From contig JBAXLH010000002.1 in assembly GCA_037134875.1 (NCBI GenBank), forward strand, positions 27,719-91,718: a DNA stretch of 64,000 bases, written 5' to 3'. The DNA comes from a bacterium (lineage in GTDB: Bacteria; Patescibacteriota; Minisyncoccia; Phycocordibacterales; DATDWN01). The notes below the pieces were generated by a model. That model was not told where the DNA came from and searched no databases. It was given only the letters and a program-made list of their open reading frames with translations. This document shows, piece after piece, positions 18,032 to 62,966 of the stretch (its first letter is position 1; each line of letters begins with the position of its first letter). The translations under genes were made by a program, and so were the position numbers.

Positions 18032-18094
18032 AGTATATATAGTGTATCAAATATGAGATAAATGAAAAGCGACCCACCTGGGTCGCATCAAAAA

Positions 18095-19260: not shown

Positions 19261-20115
19261 ATGAAAATTGAGACTTTGCGAAAAAAAGATTTTCCGCCAC
19301 TCCTCAAGGAAATAAATGATCCGCCAGCAGAAATGCGGATTGTCGGCTCACTGCCCGAGACAGAAAAATATCTCTGTGTTGTCGGCTCGCGAAAATATAG
19401 CGAGTATGGAAAGTCTGTCTGTGAAAAACTCATCGCGGGTCTCGCTGGATATCCCATTACCATAGTCTCTGGCCTCGCACTCGGAATGGATGCGATTGCC
19501 CACCGGTCGGCGCTCTCTGCCGGACTACCGACTATTGCGGTGCCTGGCTCTGGACTTTCCGAAAAAGTTTTGTACCCGAGCACCAACCACGGACTCGCCA
19601 GAGAAATCGTGGAGGAAGGCGGAGCACTCCTCTCCGAGTTTGACGACAATTTCATTGCCACCCCGTGGAGTTTTCCTCAGCGCAACAGAATAATGGCCGG
19701 AATGTCCCACGCGACACTCGTCATCGAGGCCGAGCTCAAGTCCGGCACACTCATCACATCAAAATATGCAATCGAGTACAATCGCGATGTATTTACAATC
19801 CCCCACTCAATCTTTTCCAAAACCAGTGAAGGACCTCATATGCTCCTGCGACTCGGTGCGACACCTATCACAGACAGTGCCGATATTGTTGCAGGGCTCG
19901 GACTCAAGCCAATCGAAAATTTATTTGAAAAAAGAGACTATTCGGACTGTTCCAACGACGAGCTCGAGATTATTGATATGCTATCGGAACCTCTCTCGCG
20001 CGACGAAATAATTCGCCGACTGGAAAAGCCAATTTTTGTCACACAAACAATACTTGCGACCCTCGAGATCAAAGGTCTCATCGGCGAACATATGGGAGAA
20101 ATTCATCTCGCCTGA
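19261..20115 (+). CDS. dprA: DNA-processing protein DprA (Smf)
   Basis: 284 aa. VVGSRKYSEYG...SGLALGMDAIAHRSAL...TIAVPGSGL Rossmann-like DprA core. Confidence 0.85.
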   Translation: MKIETLRKKDFPPLLKEINDPPAEMRIVGSLPETEKYLCVVGSRKYSEYGKSVCEKLIAGLAGYPITIVSGLALGMDAIAHRSALSAGLPTIAVPGSGLSEKVLYPSTNHGLAREIVEEGGALLSEFDDNFIATPWSFPQRNRIMAGMSHATLVIEAELKSGTLITSKYAIEYNRDVFTIPHSIFSKTSEGPHMLLRLGATPITDSADIVAGLGLKPIENLFEKRDYSDCSNDELEIIDMLSEPLSRDEIIRRLEKPIFVTQTILATLEIKGLIGEHMGEIHLA

Positions 20116-47484: not shown

Positions 47485-49020
47485 TTGCCAAAATTTGACT
47501 ACAATGAATATATGGCAGATATAAAGGATCTACTTTCCCTACTCCAAAATCCAACAGATAAAGAAAAAGAGCTTGTTCAAAAAGCCTATGATTTTGCCTA
47601 TGAGGCACACAAAAACCAAAAAAGACTCTCTGGAGAGCCATATTTCAGCCATGTTTTCGCCACAGCCACATATATTGCCGAACTCGGAATGGGAGCAACG
47701 ACTGTTTCCGCCGGACTTTTGCACGACACCTTGGAGGATACACCTACTACACCAGAAGAAATTGAGAAAGAATTCGGAAAAGAAATTCGCTTTTTGGTAG
47801 AAGGTGTGACAAAACTCGGCACGATCAAATACCAAAATACGAGTCGTCACAATGAATCACTACGAAAACTTTTTGTGGCAATGTCACAAGATATTCGCGT
47901 ACTCATTATCAAACTCTGTGACAGACTACATAATATGCAGACTTTGCGATATATACCAAAAGAAAAACAACTTCGTATTGCAAAAGAAACCCTCGAAATC
48001 TACGCACCGCTCGCATATAGACTTGGTATCAAAAAACTCCAACGAGATTTGGAAGATTTGGCATTTCAATATATATATCCAGAAGAAAGTGAAAAAATAA
48101 AAAAACTGTTCAACATAAAAAAGAATGAGCAGGAAGAGCATTTGGACAAGTTCCAAAAATCACTCAAAAAAGAGCTCGCAAAAAATGAAATTACAAATTT
48201 CAAAATGGATCATCGCGTCAAAAGTATTTATTCTCTCTACAAAAAACTGAAAAGGTATGAAATGAATATCGAAACTATTTACGATATTTCAGCTCTTCGT
48301 ATTATTGTCCCCGAAGTCTCTGATTGTTACAGAATTCTAGGTATCATTCATGGAGAATGGCGACCACTACCCGGTAAAATCAAAGACTATATCGCAACAC
48401 CAAAACTTTCCGGCTATCAGTCTCTGCACACAACCATCTTTAGCGGTGATGGTGGAATTATCGAAATTCAAATCAGAACAGAAGATATGCACAAAGAAGC
48501 CGAGTATGGTATCGCATCACATATGTCATACAAAGATGGCTTGAAAAAGAAAAAAACAAATCCGAATCTGCTGTGGGTCAAAAAAATCCTGCCTATAAAA
48601 AATATTGATGAAATAGATACGAGTAAAAATCTGGATGTAAAAGACATTCCGACGTGGATTAAAGAACTTGTTGAATACCAAAAAGCAAGTGGGGATGAAT
48701 CTATGGAAGAAATCAAGTCAGACTTTTTCGAGGAGAGAATTTTTGTGTTTACCCCAAAGGGAGACGTGATTGATTTACCTGTAAACTCATCTGTGATTGA
48801 TTTTGCGTACAGTGTGCATTCTGATATTGGAAACCATCTCTCTGGCGCAAAGGTCAATGGAAAATTTACTGCCATTTATACAGTCTTGCAAAACGGTGAT
48901 AGAGTTGAAATTGAGACCAAAAAAACGGCTAAACCAAGCCATAAATGGCTGGAATTCTGCAAAACGACCATGGCAAAAAGGCATATTAGAAACACTCTCG
49001 GTATTACAAACAAAAACTAG
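47485..49020 (+). CDS. RelA/SpoT-homologue (p)ppGpp synthetase/hydrolase, short form
   Basis: 511 aa. HD hydrolase (HVFATATYI...LHDTLEDT). Synthetase (RVKSIYSLYKKLKR...). TGS (ERIFVFTPKGDVIDLP...IDFAYSVHSDIGNH). Ends before any ACT domain. Confidence 0.8.
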   Translation: MPKFDYNEYMADIKDLLSLLQNPTDKEKELVQKAYDFAYEAHKNQKRLSGEPYFSHVFATATYIAELGMGATTVSAGLLHDTLEDTPTTPEEIEKEFGKEIRFLVEGVTKLGTIKYQNTSRHNESLRKLFVAMSQDIRVLIIKLCDRLHNMQTLRYIPKEKQLRIAKETLEIYAPLAYRLGIKKLQRDLEDLAFQYIYPEESEKIKKLFNIKKNEQEEHLDKFQKSLKKELAKNEITNFKMDHRVKSIYSLYKKLKRYEMNIETIYDISALRIIVPEVSDCYRILGIIHGEWRPLPGKIKDYIATPKLSGYQSLHTTIFSGDGGIIEIQIRTEDMHKEAEYGIASHMSYKDGLKKKKTNPNLLWVKKILPIKNIDEIDTSKNLDVKDIPTWIKELVEYQKASGDESMEEIKSDFFEERIFVFTPKGDVIDLPVNSSVIDFAYSVHSDIGNHLSGAKVNGKFTAIYTVLQNGDRVEIETKKTAKPSHKWLEFCKTTMAKRHIRNTLGITNKN

Positions 49021-50114
49021 ATTGAGAAATTTTTGATGGAATACATCTCGCCATCATCTATATCTGTGTTTTCTTCTTTTTTGATTTCCTCTGGACTCCT
49101 GTCATCCAAACTTTCTGGCTCTGACTCGGTCTGATCTGTATTTTCGGATTTTTCTGGAGATGTTGCGGTATCATTTTTTGCCAAAGCATTTTTGTAGCGA
49201 GGCAATTTCATAATGGATTCGTTGACCGGTGGTTCAGGATTTTTTTCTATAAACTTGTCCAGCATTTCTGTTGGTGATTTTGGTTTGTTTGATTTTATTA
49301 ACTCCAAAATACTGTTGAGATCGTCTTGAGAAAAGAAATCTATCATAATTTTTCCTCCGTGTTCTTTCTTTTCAATTGACACCCGTGTTCCCAAAGTCTC
49401 GGTCAATTTTTCCTCCATTTCCTGAGTTTCAATATCGAGTGTAAAACCTTTTTTGTGTGTTTTATCATATGCAATTCTCCGAGCGATTGATTCTGCTTCT
49501 CGCACGGTCAATTTTTTAAACATTATTTCCTTGAACAACGTCATTTGCTCCTCTGGTCTGTCAGCGAGAGTCATAAGAGGTCTCGTGTGTCCCTCGGAAA
49601 TCTTACCGGTAGACAATGCGTCCAAAATTTCCGGGGAGAGAGCAAGAATACGCAACGTGTTGGTAACATACACGCGACTCTTGCCAACTTTCTCAGCAAT
49701 GGTGCTATGTTTGAAACCAAATTCATTTACCAGACGCTCAAATGCTCTAGCCCTGTCTACAGGATTGAGATCTTCGCGTTGAACATTTTCAATAATAGCA
49801 AGCTCGAGCTTCATCAGGTCATTTTCCTCGTCACCCACTTTGATAAGACATGGTACCTGCTGAAGACCGGCAATTCTCGATGCACGCAAACGACGCTCCC
49901 CCGCGATGAGCTCGTACTCCACAGCCAAACCTCCATCCTCTTTTGGAACTTCTTTACGAGTCACGACGAGTGCCTGCAAAACGCCATACTGCCGAATAGA
50001 GTCGGCAAGCGACTGAAGTTGCATCTCGTCAAACTCACGCCGAGGCTGAAATGGATTCGGGTGAATCTTGTCAACGTCAATCCAAAAAACTGAATCATTA
50101 TAAAATTGCGACAT
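49017..50114 (-). CDS. parB: ParB/Spo0J-family partition protein with acidic C-terminal tail
   Basis: 365 aa. ParB box LIAGERRLRASRIAGL. HTH. C-terminal Glu/Asp/Ser-rich region. Confidence 0.8.
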   Translation of the reverse strand: MSQFYNDSVFWIDVDKIHPNPFQPRREFDEMQLQSLADSIRQYGVLQALVVTRKEVPKEDGGLAVEYELIAGERRLRASRIAGLQQVPCLIKVGDEENDLMKLELAIIENVQREDLNPVDRARAFERLVNEFGFKHSTIAEKVGKSRVYVTNTLRILALSPEILDALSTGKISEGHTRPLMTLADRPEEQMTLFKEIMFKKLTVREAESIARRIAYDKTHKKGFTLDIETQEMEEKLTETLGTRVSIEKKEHGGKIMIDFFSQDDLNSILELIKSNKPKSPTEMLDKFIEKNPEPPVNESIMKLPRYKNALAKNDTATSPEKSENTDQTESEPESLDDRSPEEIKKEENTDIDDGEMYSIKNFSI

Positions 50115-50126
50115 ACCTATATTTTA

Positions 50127-51164
50127 TCACGTTACTATCTCGGGCTCAACTTCCAGATGAATGTCAAACACTTTTAAAACTTTTGTCTGTATTTTTTTAA
50201 TTAAAGCTCGTAAATCTGTTGGTTTGGCAGGTTTTTTTAATATAATAACCAAAGCATTCTTGTGATATATTCCAGCACTCCCAAGCCAGATACCTTTAAA
50301 ATCACATCTGTCAATAAGAAACCCTGCCGGAATTTTTATTTTACTATCAGATTCAAAATGAGGAACATCCGGAAATTTTTTCTGTATTTTTTTTAATTTA
50401 TTTTTTGAGACAAACGGATTTTTGAAGAAAGATCCACAGTTTGGAATTTTTTTTGGATCGGGAAGTTTTGATTTTCGTATGTCAATGATTGTCTTGTAAA
50501 TTGCAATCAGCTTGTTATCGCCTTTTCTTACATATTTATCTACAAGCTCCGATACACCTGTATATGTTGGAACTTTTGGTTCTTTTTTTGATAATTCAAA
50601 TAGTACCGAAACAATAATGGCTTTATTTTTGAGTGATTTTTTAAAAATACTATCTCGATACGAAAAATCACACTCCGTGTTTTTAAGTGATTTTATTTGA
50701 AAATCTTTTGTATCAAAATAAGAAACATTTTTAATTGTATCTTTTACTTCACATCCATATGCACCAACATTTTGGACAGGAGTAGCACCGACAGTCCCAG
50801 GAATAAGAGAGAGTGACTCGATACCGGAATAACCAGACTCGACAGCCCACGTAACAAATGTGTGCCACATAAAACCTGCACCGACTTCTACAAGGACGGT
50901 ATCCGAATTTTCTTTAATTATCTGCAAAAAATTAATTCTATTCAAAATCACAATACCGTCCCAATTTTTTGTTAAAACTATATTTGATCCTCCTCCAAGA
51001 ATTAGAGTCTTTAATTTTTCTTTTTTTGCAAAATGAATTGCTTTCTTTAGATCTATATTATTTTGTACCACACAAAAATATTTTGAAAACACATCAAACC
51101 CTAGAGTTGTATATTTTTTAAGTGATCTATTTTTATATATATTCATAGTATTTCTGTTATCCAC
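50127..51164 (-). CDS. murB: UDP-N-acetylenolpyruvoylglucosamine reductase
   Basis: 345 aa. FAD-binding LILGGGSNIV. MurB C-terminal domain. Confidence 0.8.
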   Translation of the reverse strand: MDNRNTMNIYKNRSLKKYTTLGFDVFSKYFCVVQNNIDLKKAIHFAKKEKLKTLILGGGSNIVLTKNWDGIVILNRINFLQIIKENSDTVLVEVGAGFMWHTFVTWAVESGYSGIESLSLIPGTVGATPVQNVGAYGCEVKDTIKNVSYFDTKDFQIKSLKNTECDFSYRDSIFKKSLKNKAIIVSVLFELSKKEPKVPTYTGVSELVDKYVRKGDNKLIAIYKTIIDIRKSKLPDPKKIPNCGSFFKNPFVSKNKLKKIQKKFPDVPHFESDSKIKIPAGFLIDRCDFKGIWLGSAGIYHKNALVIILKKPAKPTDLRALIKKIQTKVLKVFDIHLEVEPEIVT

Positions 51165-51205
51165 AGCCTCATCTTATATTATATCATATATGATATAATC
51201 AAAAT

Positions 51206-52714
51206 ATGACAACAATAAAAATCGGAGAAATTATAAAACAAGCTCGGGAATACAAAAACCTTACCCAAGGAGAATTGGCAAAGAAATTACATACATCTCA
51301 ATCAGCGGTTGCAAGAATGGAAAAAGGAGAACAAAATCTAACAGCGGAACAGATTTCAAAAATCAGTAATATTTTAGGAAAATCTCTTGTAAAGATAGAA
51401 GGTGAAATGGATGATTTCAAAATAGAAGGAGGGAGAAAACTCTCTGGCTTCATACAAACAAACACCTCAAAAAATGGTGCTCTCGGACTCTTTTGTGCTT
51501 CCCTGCTCAACAAACAACCGACATTATTACACGGAATTCCTCACATTGAAGAAATCTCTCGCATTATAGAAATTTTTGAAAGTATCGGTGTAAAAATAGA
51601 ATGGGTAGCACACAATTCTGTTCGAATAATTCCTCCAAAAAAATTCTTCTTGAAAAATTTAAACGCAGAAAGTGCCGGAAAGATTCGATCTGTTCTTATG
51701 GTTATTGGTTCACTTATTCATTATGAAAAAAAATTTAGCATTCCACATGCCGGTGGTTGTAATATGGGACAGAGAACAATCGCTGCACACAGATATGGCT
51801 TTGAATCCCTTGGTGTCGATATCCAAACAAAAAATGACTGTTATGAAGTAACTCACAAAAAACTAAAACCTGCCGATATTGTCTTGTATGAGGCATCAGA
51901 TACTGCCACAGAAAATCTCCTCATTGCCTCAGCGCTAATTCCGGGAATAACAACTCTCAGATTTACTCCTCCAAATTATCAAGTCCAAGAAGTTTGTTTT
52001 TTCCTACAAAAATGTGGCGTAAAAATAGATGGAATCGGTACCAGTACACTCATTATACACGGCATAAAAGAGATAAATATTCCAATAGAATATTGGAATA
52101 GTGAAGATCCAACAGAATCAATGATGTTCATTGCGTCGGCAATAGTAACAAACTCCACACTGACAATTACCCGTTGTCCAATTGATTTTCTTTCTCTCGA
52201 ACTTTTGAAATTGGAAAAAATGGGTCTCATATATAGAACATCAAAAATATATATGGCAAAAAACGAACATACACGACTGTGTGATATTGTCATTTATCCT
52301 TCCAAACTAAAAGCTTCTCGTGACAAAATACACGCCTCGGCCTATCCAGGTATAAATACAGACAATCTTCCCTTCTTTGTGCCCATAGTAACTCAGGCAG
52401 AAGGCACGACGCTCATTCACGACTGGATGTGGGAAAATAGAGCAATATATTTCACAGAACTTAATCGACTTGGTGCCGATATCATCCTAGCAGATCCTCA
52501 TAGGGTTTTTGTTACTGGCCCAAGAATACTCAAAGCAAATCAAATCGTTTGCCCGCCCGCGCTCAGACCGTCAACAATTATTCTTGTTGCAATGCTTGGT
52601 GCAAAAGGAACTTCCATTTTACGCAATGTATATGCCATCAATCGCGGATACGAAAATATTGCCGAGCGACTAAACTCGATCGGTGCAAATATAAAACTAT
52701 TAAATGAATTCTAA
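51206..52714 (+). CDS. murA: XRE-family HTH domain fused to UDP-N-acetylglucosamine 1-carboxyvinyltransferase (MurA)
   Basis: 502 aa. Residues 1-65 are a Cro/C1 HTH (IIKQAREYKNLTQGELAKKLHTSQSAVARMEKGEQNLTAEQISKISNILG). The rest is EPT-fold MurA including a candidate catalytic Cys loop (PHAGGCNMGQRTIAAH). Confidence 0.8.
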   Translation: MTTIKIGEIIKQAREYKNLTQGELAKKLHTSQSAVARMEKGEQNLTAEQISKISNILGKSLVKIEGEMDDFKIEGGRKLSGFIQTNTSKNGALGLFCASLLNKQPTLLHGIPHIEEISRIIEIFESIGVKIEWVAHNSVRIIPPKKFFLKNLNAESAGKIRSVLMVIGSLIHYEKKFSIPHAGGCNMGQRTIAAHRYGFESLGVDIQTKNDCYEVTHKKLKPADIVLYEASDTATENLLIASALIPGITTLRFTPPNYQVQEVCFFLQKCGVKIDGIGTSTLIIHGIKEINIPIEYWNSEDPTESMMFIASAIVTNSTLTITRCPIDFLSLELLKLEKMGLIYRTSKIYMAKNEHTRLCDIVIYPSKLKASRDKIHASAYPGINTDNLPFFVPIVTQAEGTTLIHDWMWENRAIYFTELNRLGADIILADPHRVFVTGPRILKANQIVCPPALRPSTIILVAMLGAKGTSILRNVYAINRGYENIAERLNSIGANIKLLNEF

Positions 52715-53322: not shown

Positions 53323-53614
53323 GTGCGTTTATTTTACCAAATCCGAACCTGTTTTCAAAATAGCAATGTTGGCAATGACAACATCGGCAAGTAATGTGCC
53401 ACGCTCCACGCCTGTGGTGATGTGAAGCTAATCGTACGCAAAAGAATTCCGTCACGCCGTAGCGTCCACTACAGCGAACCTCACCGAGCACCTACAGGTG
53501 CTCGTCTCGTCTCGCTTCCGTTCCCGCTCCGTCGTTCCGCCCTCGCCTTTCCCCGCATCCATGCTTTTTTGTTTGCGGCGGTTTTTGAATTTTTTTTGGA
53601 ATGGCGCGGGGAAA
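53323..53614. repeat. Left copy of ~290-bp near-identical inverted repeat (IR-L)
   Basis: Reverse complement of 56306-56598 with about 3 mismatches and 1 indel. Confidence 0.85.
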
Positions 53615-53817: not shown

Positions 53818-54096
53818 CTACTTATGTTTTTTGTTTAAAATTTCATCTCTTTCACCGAACCTAAATAATTGTTGATCTTCAACAATACGATAATCATGTT
53901 TTACCACAGCGGCATAGACAGTAGCCTCATCAACATCCTGGCAGGTGTTTAAATCGTTATCTACCCATAAAAATGATCCATTCTCGGTCTGTAAAAAATA
54001 CTTAGACCCCCCTAAGTCTTTTAGCACAGCAAAGACCTTGACCTTCTGATTATCTCGATCAATACCTTTTTTCATTTCAAAATTTCCTTCATTCAT
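53818..54096 (-). CDS. Hypothetical small cargo protein (candidate partner or immunity protein)
   Basis: 92 aa. Lies 6 nt downstream of the large cargo gene on the same strand. Confidence 0.5.
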   Translation of the reverse strand: MNEGNFEMKKGIDRDNQKVKVFAVLKDLGGSKYFLQTENGSFLWVDNDLNTCQDVDEATVYAAVVKHDYRIVEDQQLFRFGERDEILNKKHK

Positions 54097-54101
54097 AATT
54101 A

Positions 54102-56319
54102 TTATTCTATAATATTAATTTTATCACGCCAAACGGGATTATTTCTTAGTTCATCCAAAAAACTAGTATCTTCTTCACTTGCATTTGTCAGTGCTGATCG
54201 AGGAATATTTATACTTTCTATATTTTCAAATTTAGGATTTCTGATCTGTGCTTCAAGATACCCATTAAGTGCGGGGCCAACATGAGATTGATTCTTGGCT
54301 TCAGCTTGACGTTTAAGGTCAACAGCTATTAGGGCTTTTGCAAGTGGGGCGTGATCAGCTGATATTTGTCTGCTTCTTGGATTTTCCACATTTTCATATT
54401 CATCTTCTAAAGCCCTATTTCCCTTAAAGCCAGAACCCTTGCTTTTAATTGTTTTGTTAGTCTTACCCGTAACGAAATTTATACCTTGTGCTTCCATTGA
54501 ATCTCCTTCTGTATATGAAGTTTCTGTGTCGGCCTTAAACTTGATGAATATGTCTCCATATTGTTTAGCCCCTCCGTACATATTTTCGTTATTAAAATCA
54601 TGAGCGTATGCACCATATAGCACAACTTCATTGCCATCCCGCCTGACACCCAATGCTTCTTCAACTGCTTTTCTCTTATTATAATATCTAGGACTTAACG
54701 ACCTAAACATTTTCTTCTTTTCGCTAGCACTCAATCCAAATACATCCTTGAATTCTCCAGAGTCAATAACTTTGCGAATTGAACCCATGCTGGTATTGAC
54801 GCTAATAAAACCTGTAGATTGACTGCGTTCAAATTCACTATTAAGCATTTCCGTGAGTTGTTCACGGCTGATTGTTTTTCGAAAATCCTGTCTAGAAACT
54901 GTAGCTTGCTCGTTTGCCTCTCTCGCTAATTGATAAGCTTGCTCGTCTACTCGCCCATCGACGGTCTCTAGTTCATACATATCAGCCAGTGAATCACGAA
55001 TATTTTGGAAAGATCTTTGAAGAGCCTCTCGTTTATCTTCCGGAGCTTCTGCAAGGGCACTATCTTGGTTTTTGGATGATACACCAAAATTTTTATAAAC
55101 ATTATTTTCTAGATATGTAGACATGTCTTCTTCTGGCGATAGGATAGTATCAAATTTTTGGGCAATTGGTGCTTCTGTCACATGAGTAGCAATTTCTTGA
55201 AGAGGAGTTTTTGGTTCGGCCCGAACATCTGGTTTGTGATCAAAACCTTCCGTATTGTTTATCACATCCCCATGACTCTGTGTCATATCTTCTGGCACGT
55301 GTCTCTCAAGGCCTTCTTTTGTTTCAGTCGCTTCAACTGGAATTGTCTTTTCCGTAATGACTGAAGTTTCTGGGGTTTCTGTTGGCTCAAACTGTTTTAT
55401 TTTTTCATATACAACTTTATTATCTTCTAAGCTACCTTCAGAAATTGGTAGAGATTTAACTACAGATTCAGTAACTTGTACTTCTGGAACTGGTATTGCT
55501 TCTTTCTGAAGATCTTTTAATTCAGTCTGTTGCTCTACTTTTTCAACAACAGATTGTTTTTCTGGTAACCCTTCGATATTTACTAGTTTTTCTTCTCTCT
55601 GCTGATCTGGTTTATACTCATCAACAGCGTGTGGAATTTTTAGTGTATAGATATTTTTACTTTCGTTTAATGTCGTATTCCTAAGATCAAGTAGGTTACT
55701 AATTCTTGGAGCATTTTCTGTTTTTAGGAGTTCTTTTTGTTCAGGACTTCTTGCTAAATTAAATCTTGGTGATTGTAAAGGCACTCGTCCTCTACCTGTC
55801 TCATTCGGTAAAGAATTTTGCTTGTTTCCCGAAATTAATTGAGGTTTTTGTTTATTACCGCCAATCGTATTCCCGGCTGAATTTCCACCTGGAATTTTTG
55901 CTAAAACTTTTTTAGCTTTTGAATCAAAATATAATTTAACGATAGTCAATGTACATTCTGGTAGCATATTAACAATTGGGATAAATCCAATAACAGCTCC
56001 AGCGATCATGGTTTTTTTAGAATATGTTTCCCCATTCATTTTGAAAACGAGCCAAAACGTAGCAAAAGCGAAACCATCTATAAACATGGCTAATATTTCA
56101 CCTGCTATCGGTATTAGACTTATAAGAGCTTCGAGCGTATCAAAAAATAGTGCGGTTCCAATTAAAACCATCCATGTCCCTTTTCCAATATTAGATTTAT
56201 TCTCTTCCACAATATGTCTATTATATAACAGACTAAAATCAATCTCAATAAAATTTATGAGGTAATTACTTATCTGCTTATCAATATGATATTGATCCTT
56301 AAAATTTCCCCGCGCCATT
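54102..56319 (-). CDS. Large hypothetical membrane protein with low-complexity linker and uncharacterised C-terminal domain
   Basis: ~740 aa from MARGNFKD (ATG inside the IR edge). The track's GTG-extended start at 56498 only reads through the repeat. N-terminal 4-5 TM helices. Long Q/E/T/P-rich region. C-terminal ~300-aa globular domain. Confidence 0.55.
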
Positions 56320-56598
56320 CCAAAAAAAAATTCAAAAACCGCCGCAAACAAAAAAGCATGGATGCGGGGAAATGCGAGGGCGGAACGACGGAGCGGGAAC
56401 GGAAGCGAGCCGAGACGAGCACCTGTAGGTGCTCGGTGAGGTTCGCTGTAGTGGACGCTACGGCGTGACGGAATTCTTTTGCGTACGATTAGCTTCACAT
56501 CACCACAGGCGTGGAGCGTGGCACATTACTTGCCGATGTTGTCATTGCCAACATTGCTATTTTGAAAACAGGTTCGGATTTGGTAAAATAAACGCACC
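56306..56598. repeat. Right copy of ~290-bp inverted repeat (IR-R)
   Basis: See IR-L. Contains a TTGGCA-17-TAATGT promoter-like sequence pointing into the cargo. Confidence 0.85.
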
Positions 56599-59497: not shown

Positions 59498-60961
59498 TTC
59501 TGCGAATTTTTGCGAAATGAGACCAAAATCACTGTTGCTCATAAAAACAATTACGTCACCTTTTTTCTTTATAGATTCGAGTTTGTTTAGCGCATCCTCA
59601 GGGCTTGATAGCGAAAAAGATATTTTGCCCAGTTTTTCAACGCTTTCTTTTATCACTGAAACATCAATAAAATTATTTTTGTTGTCATTATCTTTAAATG
59701 GCGGGCACGAAACAATAGATACATCCGCAAATGAAAGAGCTCTGGCGTATTCGGGCTCAAACATTTTTTGTCTACTGGTTATGGATCTTGGCTCAAAGAC
59801 ACAAACAATCCTGCGCTTTGGATAGTGTTGTCGGAGTCCCTGCAGAGTCACATTTACTGCCGTCGGGTGATGAGCAAAATCTCTGATAACAGTATAGTCT
59901 TGATTTTCTGCAATAATCTCCTGCCTTTCTTTAACGCCAGAATAATTTTTAACCCCAGAAATTATTTCAGAAATTTTTAATCCTTCTAGAAGAGACAGAA
60001 CTATCACAGACAGTGTATTTTCGATATTGTAGTCTCCAAATAATGGTACAAAAATATTTGAATACATCTTTCCTTTAAAACTAAAAGAGAACAGGGTGCC
60101 GTCTGACGTAACTTTATTTACCGCGTACCAAGCATCATTATTTTTTCCTTTTCCATAGATAACTATTTTTCCTTCGCATTGTTTCAAATCAACAAATTTT
60201 TTAGCCGACTCATTCAAAATCAAAAAACCTTTTTTTGGAATTTCTTCCACTAAAAATTGAAATGCTTGTACATAATCTGTAAATGTTGGATACAGATCAA
60301 TATGATCATGTTCGATGGACGTAATAATTGCTGACGTGACATTGTACCGCAAAAATTTTGGTGCCTTATCAAAAAACGCACAATCATATTCATCTCCCTC
60401 AAAAATTACAAATTTTGTTTTCTTTGATCCAAGGGAATAACTTTCTCCAGAACCTTGAAAAGAACCGCCGATCATATACGAAGGTTTCCTACCAGCTTCT
60501 TTGAATATATACGTCAAGAGTGAACTGGTAGTTGTTTTACCATGAGTTCCTGCAACAACAAGAGATCTTTTATTTTTGGTTAAAATTTCTCCCAAAATTT
60601 CTGCACCCGACATCATGGGTATGGACCTTCTTTTTGCTTCGACAATTTCCAGTGAATTTGGAGGGAGCATATTTCCGGGAACAAATACATCAATACCCTT
60701 CAAATTTTTTATTGACATTTTTTTGCACACAATTCCATTCTCTTCTAGCACGGTGCTCATCGGAGGATAACAATGTTCATCACTTGCCGAAATTTTGTAA
60801 CCCATTTGTGATAAAAGACAAGTAACAGAAGCCATGGCTTTACCACACGCAGCTGAAATATGTATACTAGATTTTTTGTTTAATTTTCCTACAATTCTGC
60901 CTCTTTCTGAAGCGTTTGGCAGTAAGTTACGTTTTGCTTCATAGTAATAATCATATGATTT
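59489..60961 (-). CDS. Mur ligase family protein (Mpl/MurC-like)
   Basis: YPPMSTVLEENGI, AGTHGKTTTSSLL and FVIFEGDEYDCAFFDKAPKFLRY closely parallel Mpl. Start taken at MKSYDYYY. Confidence 0.75.
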   Translation of the reverse strand, partial: KSYDYYYEAKRNLLPNASERGRIVGKLNKKSSIHISAACGKAMASVTCLLSQMGYKISASDEHCYPPMSTVLEENGIVCKKMSIKNLKGIDVFVPGNMLPPNSLEIVEAKRRSIPMMSGAEILGEILTKNKRSLVVAGTHGKTTTSSLLTYIFKEAGRKPSYMIGGSFQGSGESYSLGSKKTKFVIFEGDEYDCAFFDKAPKFLRYNVTSAIITSIEHDHIDLYPTFTDYVQAFQFLVEEIPKKGFLILNESAKKFVDLKQCEGKIVIYGKGKNNDAWYAVNKVTSDGTLFSFSFKGKMYSNIFVPLFGDYNIENTLSVIVLSLLEGLKISEIISGVKNYSGVKERQEIIAENQDYTVIRDFAHHPTAVNVTLQGLRQHYPKRRIVCVFEPRSITSRQKMFEPEYARALSFADVSIVSCPPFKDNDNKNNFIDVSVIKESVEKLGKISFSLSSPEDALNKLESIKKKGDVIVFMSNSDFGLISQKFAESI

Positions 60962-62667: not shown

Positions 62668-62966
62668 GGAAAAAAAGCAAATGAAAAGCGCAGGGTGGAC
62701 ACCCCGCGCTCGTTGAGGGACGAAGCCCTCGGACTAGGCCGTCGCGACGGCCTTCTTCTTTTTCCGGTCGGAGGAAGCCGACGGCTTCCCCGTTCCGGAA
62801 ACCGGCGCCCCGCGCCGGATGGCCTCGAGAGCGACCATCGGGCGCTGCTTGCGCCCGTGGTCGCCGTGGCGCGGGACATTCTGTCCCGGCCGGAACTCCG
62901 TATTCTGATTGTACATATAAAAACTCCTTCAACTATAATATTAGCATACTATATAAAATCTGTCAA
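62668..62966 (-). other. GC-rich (~70%) autonomous unit: consensus promoter, AAGGAG SD, 60-aa Arg/Gly/Pro-rich ORF (62734-62916), hairpin plus U terminator. Small basic protein or structured sRNA.
   Basis: Minus strand: TTGACA-17-TAATAT (62966-62938). SD AAGGAG 7 nt before ATG at 62916. ORF MYNQNTEFRPGQNVPRHGDHGRKQRPMVALEAIRRGAPVSGTGKPSASSDRKKKKAVATA. Terminator GCGCGGGGUG-UC-CACCCUGCGC+UUUUCAUUUGCUUUUUUU (62668-62710). RNA forms a series of perfect 7-10 bp hairpins. Confidence 0.45.

What the first reader, a model, noticed from the sequence alone, without database searches (positions are those of the whole stretch)
50127..52714. Divergent murB / HTH-murA pair; MurA carries an N-terminal XRE-type DNA-binding domain
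MurA is preceded in the same ORF by a canonical Cro/C1-type helix-turn-helix (about 65 aa). The gene is transcribed divergently from murB across a 41-bp intergenic region, and the catalytic Cys loop is retained. This enzyme-repressor fusion could autoregulate the first committed steps of peptidoglycan synthesis.
Basis: partly seen in the sequence, partly recalled or inferred. Interest (0 to 1): 0.55.

Follow-up and report, generated by a model that had tools for sequence, protein, structure and literature searches.

The report
DNA-binding MurA enzyme with conserved operator
The first enzyme of bacterial cell-wall synthesis (MurA) is here fused to a DNA-binding domain and has a conserved palindromic DNA site over its own promoter, so it very probably switches off its own gene; the same arrangement occurs from tiny uncultured bacteria to Streptomyces and appears not to have been studied.

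Summary
ORF 51206-52714 encodes one 502-aa protein: an XRE/Cro-type HTH (aa 10-62), a 5-residue linker and a full-length MurA with all catalytic residues. murB is divergent. The gap is 41 bp from its GTG, and more likely 59 bp from ATG 51146.

The fusion is not an assembly artefact. 72 of 80 related species genomes (Parcubacteria) have the HTH in frame. It also occurs in Saccharibacteria and in Streptomyces/Nonomuraea.

A perfect 22-bp palindrome (51178-51199; core TATATCAyATrTGATATA) overlaps the -10 boxes of both genes. All 71 fusion loci analysed carry this core upstream of murA (up to 2 mismatches), including loci with no divergent gene. Actinobacteria have ATCTCATATnTGAGATA 10-12 nt before the start codon. 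Operator variants are symmetric and track changes in the recognition helix. Two rare relatives keep the HTH and an operator-like site but have lost the catalytic residues.

Best reading: a bifunctional enzyme and autorepressor ("trigger enzyme", like BirA or PutA) controlling murA, and here murB. DNA binding and any ligand control are inferred, not shown. No paper found describes it. A DnaA-box-like motif is also enriched at this promoter.

The parts
51206..52714 (+). HTH-murA gene: one ORF of 502 aa plus the stop codon
   Evidence: An identical protein is in public MAG records, named MurA (P0001).
51206..51391 (+). XRE/Cro-C1-type helix-turn-helix domain (aa 1-62). The recognition helix is T30-SQSAVARME-39.
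   Evidence: Pfam HTH_3, aa 10-62. AlphaFold helices at aa 2-16, 21-28, 32-39 and 47-57. T30, S31, Q32, S33, R37, E39, G41, Q43 and N44 are invariant in 69 fusion proteins.
51392..51406 (+). Short linker (aa 63-67) between the HTH and MurA
   Evidence: pLDDT below 50 for residues 63-67. Non-fusion homologues begin just after this point.
51407..52711 (+). MurA (UDP-GlcNAc enolpyruvyl transferase) domain, aa 68-502. The catalytic Cys185 codon is at 51758-51760.
   Evidence: NF006873 above its cutoff. Full-length alignment to solved MurA structures, E 5e-54. Catalytic residues are invariant.
51178..51199 (.). Perfect 22-bp palindrome ATTATATCATATATGATATAAT. The conserved 18-bp core, 51180-51197, is the inferred operator: two 7-bp half-sites TATATCA / TGATATA separated by 4 bp.
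   Evidence: It is the longest palindrome in the window; 7 of 200 Markov simulations reach this arm length. There is a single perfect copy in the window. The core is present upstream of murA in 71 of 71 fusion loci with up to 2 mismatches, 44 of them perfect.
51191..51199 (+). Extended -10 box TGATATAAT for HTH-murA, ending 6 nt before the ATG (a leaderless transcript is inferred)
   Evidence: Sequence. Only 3 of 44 long ORFs in the window have an SD-like motif, and TGnTAnnnT 6-8 nt before the ATG recurs. Non-fusion relatives without a divergent murB keep only this half.
51178..51186 (-). Mirror-image extended -10 box (TGATATAAT on the minus strand), facing murB
   Evidence: Sequence. The consensus scan also offers TTGTCA-18-TATGAT on the minus strand, so the exact murB promoter is not settled.
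51157..51165 (+). DnaA-box-like motif TTATCCACA, between the probable murB start and the operator
   Evidence: One of only two perfect copies in the window. In relatives, 15 of the 27 perfect copies in 634 kb lie within 140 nt upstream of murA, against 0.21 expected.
50127..51146 (-). murB (UDP-N-acetylenolpyruvoylglucosamine reductase), with its probable ATG start at 51146. The ORF is open to the GTG at 51164.
   Evidence: NF000755, 380 bits against a cutoff of 277, aligned from residue 7. Pfam FAD_binding_4 and MurB_C.

Best explanation
The gene encodes a bifunctional protein: an active MurA enzyme whose N-terminal XRE-type HTH binds, as a dimer, the 18-bp palindrome TATATCA-N4-TGATATA. This site lies between -35 and -10 and overlaps the -10 of its own promoter. 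In this genome it also overlaps the -10 of the divergent murB promoter. Binding would block RNA polymerase, so the amount of MurA protein feeds back directly on transcription of murA, and here of murB, which together make the first two committed steps of peptidoglycan synthesis.

Shown by computation: the fusion, the intact catalytic residues, the palindrome and its position, its conservation across phyla, and its co-variation with the recognition helix.

Inferred: that the HTH binds this site, that binding represses, that the protein dimerises, and that the transcript is leaderless.

More speculative (about 0.3): the MurA domain also acts as the sensor. In this version, substrate or product binding (UDP-GlcNAc or PEP, or the known MurA feedback ligand UDP-MurNAc) and the known open-to-closed movement of MurA would change DNA affinity, as in BirA and PutA.
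For: 1. The fusion is real and old. The HTH is in frame in 72 of 80 Parcubacteria species genomes. About 100 clusters at 50% identity span the junction. The fusion is present in Saccharibacteria and in Streptomyces, Nonomuraea and relatives at 47% identity over aa 4-502. The HTH alone is 43% identical between the window and Nonomuraea (E 4e-18).

2. The operator is conserved. All 71 fusion loci analysed have the 18-bp core upstream of murA with up to 2 mismatches; 44 match perfectly and 67 lie within 120 nt of the start. Hits are rare in the rest of 634 kb: 15 at up to 3 mismatches. Seven of these have up to 1 mismatch, and all but one of the seven (L058, at murC) still lie just upstream of murA. 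Conservation stops at the edges of the core.

3. The palindrome is not just two back-to-back promoters. The whole palindrome is kept where the upstream neighbour is co-oriented (L017, L020, L039, L061, L065, L066, L070, L071; a tRNA-Leu on the + strand in L054 and L076). Relatives that lost the HTH and have no divergent murB keep only the TGATATAAT half.

4. The pattern is that of a dimer site. The outer 7-bp half-sites are symmetric and the central 4 bp tolerate asymmetry. Variants are symmetric: TATCTC..GAGATA in 6 loci and TATAGC..GCTATA in 1.

5. Protein and DNA co-vary. The recognition helix TSQSS[VI]PRME occurs only with GAGATA-type half-sites (10 of 10 loci) and never with the canonical operator. 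The tree suggests more than one switch.

6. Actinobacteria with about 70% G+C carry ATCTCATATnTGAGATA 10-12 nt before the start codon in 5 of 5 loci. A Saccharibacteria locus has TTGACTC-TATATCATGGGTGATATA.

7. Members P0198 and P0222 have lost K22, the Cys loop, D305, R371 and R397 but keep the HTH. The one of these two whose locus was read (P0198, L081) also has an operator-like site. The architecture therefore has a role that does not need catalysis.

8. One subclade has a second operator-like site at the murC promoter.

9. The AlphaFold model shows a separate helical HTH domain on a flexible linker.
Against: There is no experimental evidence of DNA binding, repression or enzyme activity for any member. 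The right half-site coincides with a generic extended -10 box of this SD-poor genome. Two non-fusion relatives with a divergent murB (L016, L037) still have the whole palindrome, so promoter function alone can maintain it in that arrangement. MurA enzymes are usually described as monomers (own knowledge), so the source of dimerisation is unknown. The helix/operator co-variation sits in one larger clade and rests on a neighbour-joining tree. The palindrome in the window alone is only marginally unusual (7 of 200 simulations). TIGR01072 is below its cutoff. Nothing here bears on ligand control.
Confidence: 0.7

Rival explanations
1. The palindrome is only a pair of overlapping, divergent extended -10 promoters (TGATATAAT on each strand), and the HTH domain does something else, such as protein-protein contact, nucleoid tethering or control of MurA stability.
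For: The right half equals TGnTATAAT, a promoter form seen before many ORFs in this window. Non-fusion relatives keep that half. Non-fusion loci L016 and L037, which have a divergent murB, keep the whole palindrome.
Against: The full palindrome is kept in fusion loci whose upstream neighbour is co-oriented or is a tRNA. Symmetric variants exist and co-vary with the recognition helix. The GC-rich actinobacterial loci have ATCTCATATnTGAGATA, which is not promoter-like, with unrelated neighbours.
Confidence: 0.1
2. The protein is mainly a transcription factor. The MurA-like domain serves as a UDP-sugar/PEP sensor or as a dimerisation module, and the cell's working MurA is a different gene.
For: Members P0198 and P0222 are catalytically dead but keep the HTH; P0198, the only one of the two whose locus was read, also has an operator-like site. 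P0129 lacks the Cys loop. A paper states that S. coelicolor has two MurA enzymes (PMC12161575). TIGR01072 is below its cutoff.
Against: The window protein and 69 aligned relatives keep every catalytic residue. It sits next to murB and is the only MurA in the 64 kb. Relatives that lost the HTH keep the same MurA as a plain enzyme. CPR genomes are small, which makes a second murA less likely (own knowledge, not tested).
Confidence: 0.12
3. The HTH-MurA binds the site but activates transcription, or acts as a switch between murA and murB, rather than repressing.
For: Some XRE-family proteins activate (own knowledge). Nothing in the data gives the sign of regulation directly.
Against: The site lies between -35 and -10 and overlaps the -10, 8-12 nt from the start codon in most loci. 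That is the classical position for steric repression.
Confidence: 0.07
4. The fusion is an artefact: a mis-assembly, a sequencing frameshift or a wrong gene call joining a small regulator gene to murA.
For: None found.
Against: It is in frame in 72 of 80 independent assemblies, in complete Streptomyces chromosomes and in more than 100 protein clusters.
Confidence: 0.01

Closest known systems
BirA (biotin protein ligase and bio operon repressor, E. coli)
   Same: An enzyme with an N-terminal HTH-type DNA-binding domain in one polypeptide. It binds a palindromic operator that overlaps two divergent promoters of its own pathway (bioA / bioBFCD). The enzyme's ligand state sets DNA binding (own knowledge).
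   Different: BirA has a winged HTH, not an XRE HTH, and an unrelated enzyme fold and pathway. It does not regulate its own gene. Ligand-driven dimerisation is proven for BirA and only guessed here.
PutA (proline dehydrogenase/P5C dehydrogenase and put repressor)
   Same: A trigger enzyme that represses its own gene and a divergently transcribed partner (putP) through operators in the shared intergenic region (own knowledge).
   Different: PutA has a ribbon-helix-helix DNA-binding domain, uses redox- and membrane-driven release, has several operators and is catabolic.
NadR, and XRE-HTH/shikimate-kinase fusions (NCBIfam PRK08154)
   Same: An XRE or HTH N-terminal domain fused to a metabolic enzyme domain. 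PRK08154 gave a weak hit to the HTH (E 2.7e-4).
   Different: Different enzyme domains. No conserved self-operator is known to me for PRK08154.
Canonical MurA (E. coli and Enterobacter cloacae MurA; PDB 1uae, 1ejc, 5ujs)
   Same: Full-length homology (E 5e-54 to 1e-39), the same catalytic Lys, Cys, Arg and Asp residues, and a flexible Cys loop.
   Different: No solved MurA chain carries an HTH. Known MurA control is post-translational, for example ClpCP/ReoM in Firmicutes and UDP-MurNAc feedback (own knowledge), not self-binding to DNA.
Streptomyces murA2 (SCO5998 / sven5810)
   Same: The actinobacterial fusion lies next to aconitase, as SCO5998 lies next to SCO5999 (PMC12161575). murA2 is a second MurA gene with developmental (BldM-WhiI) and SigB control (PMC4125116, PMC8346170).
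   Different: Identity with the fusion is inferred from synteny only. The published S. venezuelae murA2 forward primer encodes MPTPTAS.., not the M.DDYL.RIG N-terminus of the fusions read here, so this is unresolved. None of the papers read that mention murA2 or SCO5998 refers to an HTH in the passages retrieved.

Membership tests
MurA (UDP-N-acetylglucosamine 1-carboxyvinyltransferase; EPSP-synthase fold) | Full-length two-domain EPSP_synthase-fold region that scores above a curated family threshold | tested here: met
   PF00275 covers 2-417 of 417 profile positions (E 2e-39). NF006873 scores 315.8 against a cutoff of 297. PDB MurA chains align over aa 67-500, E 5e-54. The AlphaFold domain has pLDDT mostly above 90.
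MurA (UDP-N-acetylglucosamine 1-carboxyvinyltransferase; EPSP-synthase fold) | Score above the strict equivalog model TIGR01072 | tested here: not met
   306.2 bits against a cutoff of 392.7. This is a divergent subfamily, so the function is inferred from the subfamily model and the catalytic residues.
MurA (UDP-N-acetylglucosamine 1-carboxyvinyltransferase; EPSP-synthase fold) | Catalytic residues K22, C115 (or Asp), R120, D305, R371 and R397 (E. coli numbering) | tested here: met
   K89, C185, R190, D386, R454 and R480 align with them and are invariant in 26 and 69 relatives.
MurA (UDP-N-acetylglucosamine 1-carboxyvinyltransferase; EPSP-synthase fold) | Enolpyruvyl transfer from PEP to UDP-GlcNAc; essential for peptidoglycan synthesis | not testable with these tools
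   Supported only by context: murB is adjacent and this is the only MurA in the window.
XRE / Cro-C1 type HTH (Pfam HTH_3, PF01381) | Sequence match above the Pfam gathering score, and a helical bundle with helix-turn-helix | tested here: met
   50 bits against a cutoff of 23, aa 10-62. Four helices are predicted at aa 2-16, 21-28, 32-39 and 47-57.
XRE / Cro-C1 type HTH (Pfam HTH_3, PF01381) | Binds a dyad-symmetric DNA site as a dimer | tested here: inconclusive
   A conserved 7-4-7 palindrome lies at the promoter, and it co-varies with the recognition helix. Binding and oligomeric state could not be tested.
Trigger enzymes / bifunctional enzyme-repressors (BirA, PutA, NadR type; a functional class, not a homologous family) | A catalytic domain and a DNA-binding domain in one polypeptide | tested here: met
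Trigger enzymes / bifunctional enzyme-repressors (BirA, PutA, NadR type; a functional class, not a homologous family) | An operator in the promoter of genes of the enzyme's own pathway | tested here: met
   By comparative evidence only: the site overlaps the murA and murB -10 boxes, is conserved in 71 of 71 fusion loci, and has a second copy at murC in one subclade.
Trigger enzymes / bifunctional enzyme-repressors (BirA, PutA, NadR type; a functional class, not a homologous family) | DNA binding changes with the enzyme's substrate or product state | not testable with these tools
   The only hint is that the catalytically dead members keep the fold and the HTH, and the one whose locus was read also has an operator-like site.
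Type II antitoxin (HipB / PezA / HigA-like XRE antitoxins) | Score above the family cutoff, and an adjacent toxin gene | tested here: not met
   All antitoxin models are far below their cutoffs, for example TIGR03070 at 38.8 against 71.65. The neighbours are murB, parB and relA/spoT, with no toxin.

The most novel reading that the evidence does not exclude
HTH-MurA is a one-protein feedback loop for the committed step of cell-wall synthesis. The MurA domain senses UDP-GlcNAc, PEP or UDP-MurNAc through its open-to-closed movement and sets the DNA affinity of the fused HTH, so precursor supply directly tunes transcription of murA (and murB or murC). The module is ancient or horizontally shared between Patescibacteria and their actinobacterial hosts. 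In Parcubacteria it is further wired to the replication initiator through a DnaA box at the same promoter, and in some lineages it has decayed into a pure pseudoenzyme regulator.
Probability: 0.3. Interest if true: 0.8.

Novelty: new variant of a known kind. Interest (0 to 1): 0.66.

Why it matters
How bacteria set the flux into peptidoglycan at MurA is an active question. The known controls are post-translational: ClpCP/ReoM proteolysis in Firmicutes and UDP-MurNAc feedback (own knowledge). A MurA that reads out its own level, and possibly its ligand state, directly on DNA would be a new and very economical control principle. That fits genome-reduced Patescibacteria, which have few regulators.

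The same module, with the same operator architecture, is present in Streptomyces and Nonomuraea, which are genetically tractable. The hypothesis can therefore be tested at once by EMSA, ChIP-seq and reporter assays. It could also explain the role of the second MurA of actinomycetes.

The finding also supplies a defined protein/operator pair, with natural specificity variants, for studying XRE recognition. It hints at gene exchange between Saccharibacteria and Actinobacteria, and it gives a candidate link between DnaA and cell-wall synthesis.

Tried and rejected
1. Assembly or frameshift artefact: rejected.

2. RNA element: Rfam found only three tRNAs in the window and nothing in this region. 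The palindrome lies upstream of the likely transcription start, so an RNA hairpin reading was dropped.

3. Extended palindromes. Several loci have 11-16-bp arms, which suggested cruciform-type selection or covarying flanks. Complementarity of the flanking pairs is not above what the column frequencies predict, so this was dropped. The conserved unit is the 18-bp core.

4. Second site in the window. The only other hit, at 18043 upstream of serS, has 3 mismatches and was treated as chance. The Mur-ligase gene at 59723-60874 has no site.

5. oriC reading of the DnaA box next to parB: there are only two perfect boxes in 64 kb and no cluster, so this was rejected. The box is not a -35 element either, because its distance to the operator varies from 21 to 34 nt.

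6. Literature: eight searches found no description of an HTH-MurA. Two apparent hits were false matches to 'muralytic' and 'Murakami'.

7. Equating the actinobacterial fusion with the published murA2: synteny with aconitase supports it. The S. venezuelae murA2 primer encodes a different N-terminus, so this is left open.

8. Antitoxin reading of the HTH: rejected.

9. The 70-aa stand-alone HTH P0261 could be a split gene or a fragment at a contig end. It could not be looked up.
Full report
**What is in the window.** ORF 51206..52714 (+) is a single 502-aa frame. Pfam finds an XRE/Cro-C1-type HTH_3 domain at aa 10-62 (E 3e-13, 50 bits against a cutoff of 23) and an EPSP_synthase-fold domain covering the whole profile at aa 74-489. 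NCBIfam places the C-terminal part in the MurA subfamily model NF006873 (315.8 bits against a cutoff of 297). The strict equivalog TIGR01072 is missed (306 against 392.7), so this is a divergent MurA. Solved MurA structures align over aa 67-500 (E 5e-54), and no solved chain carries an HTH. The catalytic residues align with E. coli K22, C115, R120, D305, R371 and R397. Here they are K89, C185, R190, D386, R454 and R480, and they are invariant in 26 and 69 relatives. An AlphaFold model (mean pLDDT 85.9) shows a four-helix HTH domain (aa 2-16, 21-28, 32-39, 47-57), a disordered five-residue linker (aa 63-67) and a confident MurA body with the usual floppy Cys loop.

murB (NF000755, 380 bits) is divergent at 50127..51164. 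Its profile and homologue alignments start at the ATG at 51146, so the intergenic region is more likely 59 bp than the 41 bp given by the GTG start. parB and a relA/spoT gene lie beyond murB. There is only one MurA and one MurB in the 64 kb.

**The fusion is real and widespread.** A protein search returned many proteins of about 503 aa, 66-80% identical, carrying both Pfam domains, from Patescibacteria, Minisyncoccia and Parcubacteria MAGs. It also returned homologues of about 440 aa that start right at the MurA domain. A scan of one genome per species found 583 relatives. In the best 80 loci the HTH is present, in frame and without a stop in 72. Seven loci lack it, and one is cut off by a contig end. 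A profile-free search with aa 1-130 found about 100 clusters at 50% identity that span the junction.

In a neighbour-joining tree of the MurA domains, the HTH-less proteins are nested at several places inside the fusion clade, close to the window's own sequence. This points to secondary loss of the HTH. The same architecture is common in Saccharibacteria (about 509 aa). Unexpectedly, it is also common in Streptomyces, Actinacidiphila, Nonomuraea and other actinomycetes. There it is 47% identical to the window protein over aa 4-502, and 87-97% identical among the best 120 hits to the Nonomuraea protein, which come from several actinomycete genera. The HTH alone is 43% identical between the window and Nonomuraea (E 4e-18). 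NCBI names these proteins either MurA or 'helix-turn-helix domain-containing protein'.

**The operator.** The intergenic region contains a perfect 22-bp palindrome, ATTATATCATATATGATATAAT (51178-51199). It is the longest palindrome in the window. On its own it is only marginally unusual, because 7 of 200 Markov simulations reach this arm length. Comparison with relatives is what makes it significant. All 71 fusion loci with usable upstream DNA have the 18-bp core TATATCAyATrTGATATA upstream of murA with at most 2 mismatches. Of these, 44 match perfectly, 67 lie within 120 nt of the start codon, and the remaining four lie at -153 to -607.

In 634 kb of locus DNA, only 15 further hits with up to 3 mismatches occur. 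Seven of them have up to 1 mismatch, and all but one of those seven (L058, at the murC promoter) still lie just upstream of a murA gene. Conservation falls off sharply outside the 18 bp. The outer seven positions on each side are almost always complementary, while the central four tolerate asymmetry. That is the pattern of two half-sites for a dimer.

The site sits between a -35-like TTGCAT/TTGCTA (seen in many relatives) and the -10, and it overlaps the -10. Its end is 8-11 nt from the start codon in 38 of the 67 loci with a nearby site. In the window, TGATATAAT ends 6 nt before the ATG. The genome is almost devoid of Shine-Dalgarno motifs (3 of 44 long ORFs), and many ORFs have TGnTAnnnT 6-8 nt before the ATG. 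A leaderless transcript is therefore likely, but this is an inference.

**Is the palindrome only two divergent promoters?** The left half read on the minus strand is again TGATATAAT, facing murB. Two HTH-less relatives with a divergent murB (L016, L037) keep the whole palindrome. HTH-less relatives without a divergent murB keep only the right half. Promoter function alone can therefore maintain the palindrome in the divergent arrangement.

Several observations argue against promoters being the whole story:
- Only about half of the fusion loci have murB next door (36 of 70, plus the window).
- The complete palindrome is kept where the upstream neighbour is co-oriented (L017, L020, L039, L061, L065, L066, L070, L071) or is a tRNA-Leu on the same strand (L054, L076).
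- Variants are symmetric: TATCTCATATATGAGATA in six loci and TATAGCATATATGCTATA in one.
- The variants track the protein. The recognition helix TSQSAVARME becomes TSQSS[VI]PRME in all six TATCTC..GAGATA loci and in four of ten TATATC..GAGATA hybrids. It never does so in the loci with the canonical site. The tree suggests more than one switch within that clade.
- In five of five actinobacterial loci, in DNA of about 70% G+C and with unrelated neighbours, ATCTCATATnTGAGATA lies 10-12 nt before the start codon.
- A Saccharibacteria locus has TTGACTC-TATATCATGGGTGATATA.

**Further support for a regulatory role.** Two rare, divergent members (P0198 and P0222, 29% identical to the window protein) keep the HTH (NTSQSAINRIEKG). 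They have lost K22, the whole Cys loop, D305, R371 and R397. P0129 lacks the Cys loop and R120. P0198 sits in a murB - relA/spoT - HTH-'MurA' row and has ATATCAAATATGATAT about 25 nt before its ATG. The fold and the HTH, and in the one locus read an operator-like site as well, can therefore persist without catalysis. This suggests that the MurA domain contributes something other than chemistry, such as sensing or dimerisation.

In one Parcubacteria subclade (L030, L034, L036, L058), a second operator-like palindrome lies in the divergent promoter region between murC and a conserved 83-aa ORF. This hints at a small peptidoglycan regulon. The window has no second site. The only other hit, at 18043 upstream of serS, has three mismatches.

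**Most likely mechanism.** HTH-MurA binds the operator as a dimer and blocks RNA polymerase at its own promoter, and here also at the murB promoter. The enzyme's abundance would then hold its own synthesis in check (confidence about 0.7 for binding plus autoregulation). The half-site centres are 11 bp apart, one helical turn, as for phage-type XRE repressors (sequence; own knowledge). Whether ligand binding and the open-to-closed movement of MurA modulate DNA affinity is an attractive idea, by analogy with BirA and PutA and with UDP-MurNAc feedback on MurA (own knowledge). It is untested (about 0.3).

The rivals are a promoter-only palindrome with another role for the HTH (0.1), a sensor-regulator that is not the working MurA (0.12), activation instead of repression (0.07), and an artefact (0.01).

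**Comparison with what is known, and novelty.** Functionally this is a trigger enzyme of the BirA / PutA / NadR kind, but with a different DNA-binding fold, enzyme and pathway. Eight full-text searches found no paper describing a DNA-binding MurA.

The actinobacterial copy lies next to aconitase. S. coelicolor SCO5998 (murA2) likewise lies next to SCO5999 (PMC12161575). murA2 is known as a BldM-WhiI target and as a SigB-dependent gene (PMC4125116, PMC8346170), and no HTH was mentioned in the passages read. The equation murA2 = fusion rests on synteny only, and the published S. venezuelae primer encodes a different N-terminus. It is therefore left open.

The architecture is thus catalogued in sequence databases, but its regulatory logic appears to be undescribed. 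I rate it a new variant of a known kind.

**Seen in passing.** A DnaA-box-like TTATCCACA lies at 51157-51165, between murB and the operator. In relatives, 15 of the 27 perfect copies in 634 kb lie within 140 nt upstream of murA, against 0.21 expected. With up to one mismatch the count is 39 against 3.5 expected, and 33 of the 39 are on the murA strand. Some of these are in loci without murB. The window has no cluster of boxes, so this is not oriC. A 275-nt, 99% inverted repeat (53323-53597 / 56323-56597) flanks a 2.7-kb segment just downstream.

Noticed in passing
window 51157-51165 (+); also L001, L004, L007, L010, L013, L042, L053-L055, L058, L076 upstream of murA: A perfect DnaA-box consensus TTATCCACA sits 21-34 nt upstream of the operator start. 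15 of the 27 perfect copies in 634 kb of related loci lie within 140 nt upstream of HTH-murA (0.21 expected), mostly on the murA strand and also in loci without murB. In some loci ATATCCACA falls in murB N-terminal codons, so part of the signal may be a coding constraint. This may link the replication initiator to cell-wall synthesis. There is no cluster of boxes, so it is not oriC.
   Followed up: partly
L030 2738-2755, L036 1574-1591, L058 479-496, L034 2591-2608: A second operator-like palindrome (for example TATCTCACATATGGTATA) lies in the divergent promoter region between murC and a conserved ORF of about 83 aa, in one Parcubacteria subclade. This suggests a murA/murB/murC regulon there.
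   Followed up: partly
P0198 (L081 6001-7467), P0222, P0129: These are HTH-MurA relatives whose MurA domain has lost the catalytic Lys, the Cys loop, the Asp and the Arg residues (pseudoenzymes) while keeping the HTH. L081 (P0198), the only one of these loci read, also has an operator-like site and shows the gene order murB - relA/spoT - HTH-deadMurA.
   Followed up: partly
L084 (Nonomuraea gerenzanensis NZ_LT559118.1), L085-L088 (Streptomyces, Marinactinospora): The same fusion, 47% identical over its full length, is very common and highly conserved in actinomycetes, with ATCTCATATnTGAGATA 10-12 nt before the start codon. It is often next to aconitase, as SCO5998 (murA2) is next to SCO5999. 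Whether the published murA2 is this fusion is unresolved, because the S. venezuelae primer encodes a different N-terminus. The high cross-phylum identity could reflect gene transfer between Saccharibacteria and their actinobacterial hosts.
   Followed up: partly
window 53323-53597 and 56323-56597: A 275-nt inverted repeat, 99% complementary, flanks a 2.7-kb segment that holds ORFs 53818-54096 and 54102-56498 (798 aa). Both arms encode the same N-terminal peptide MKLIVRKRIPSRRSVHYSEPHRAPTGARL. It could be an invertible segment or a mobile element.
   Followed up: no
whole window, for example upstream of ORFs starting at 19261 and 13705: Only 3 of 44 long ORFs have a Shine-Dalgarno-like motif. 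Many have TGnTAnnnT 6-8 nt before the ATG, so the genome looks SD-poor, with frequent leaderless-type starts.
   Followed up: partly
window 47485-51164; L081 3388-7467: relA/spoT is a neighbour of murB and HTH-murA both in the window (relA, parB, murB, murA) and in the distant locus L081 (murB, relA/spoT, HTH-MurA-like). This may be a conserved linkage between the stringent-response gene and early peptidoglycan genes.
   Followed up: no
window 62736-62753: The only other perfect palindrome with arms of at least 8 bp in the window is the GC-rich AGGCCGTCGCGACGGCCT.
   Followed up: no
L016 and L037 upstream of murA: These two relatives have lost the HTH but keep the full palindrome between murB and murA. 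Either promoter function alone maintains it, or a stand-alone HTH acts in trans. A 70-aa HTH-only protein, P0261, exists, but its context could not be looked up.
   Followed up: partly
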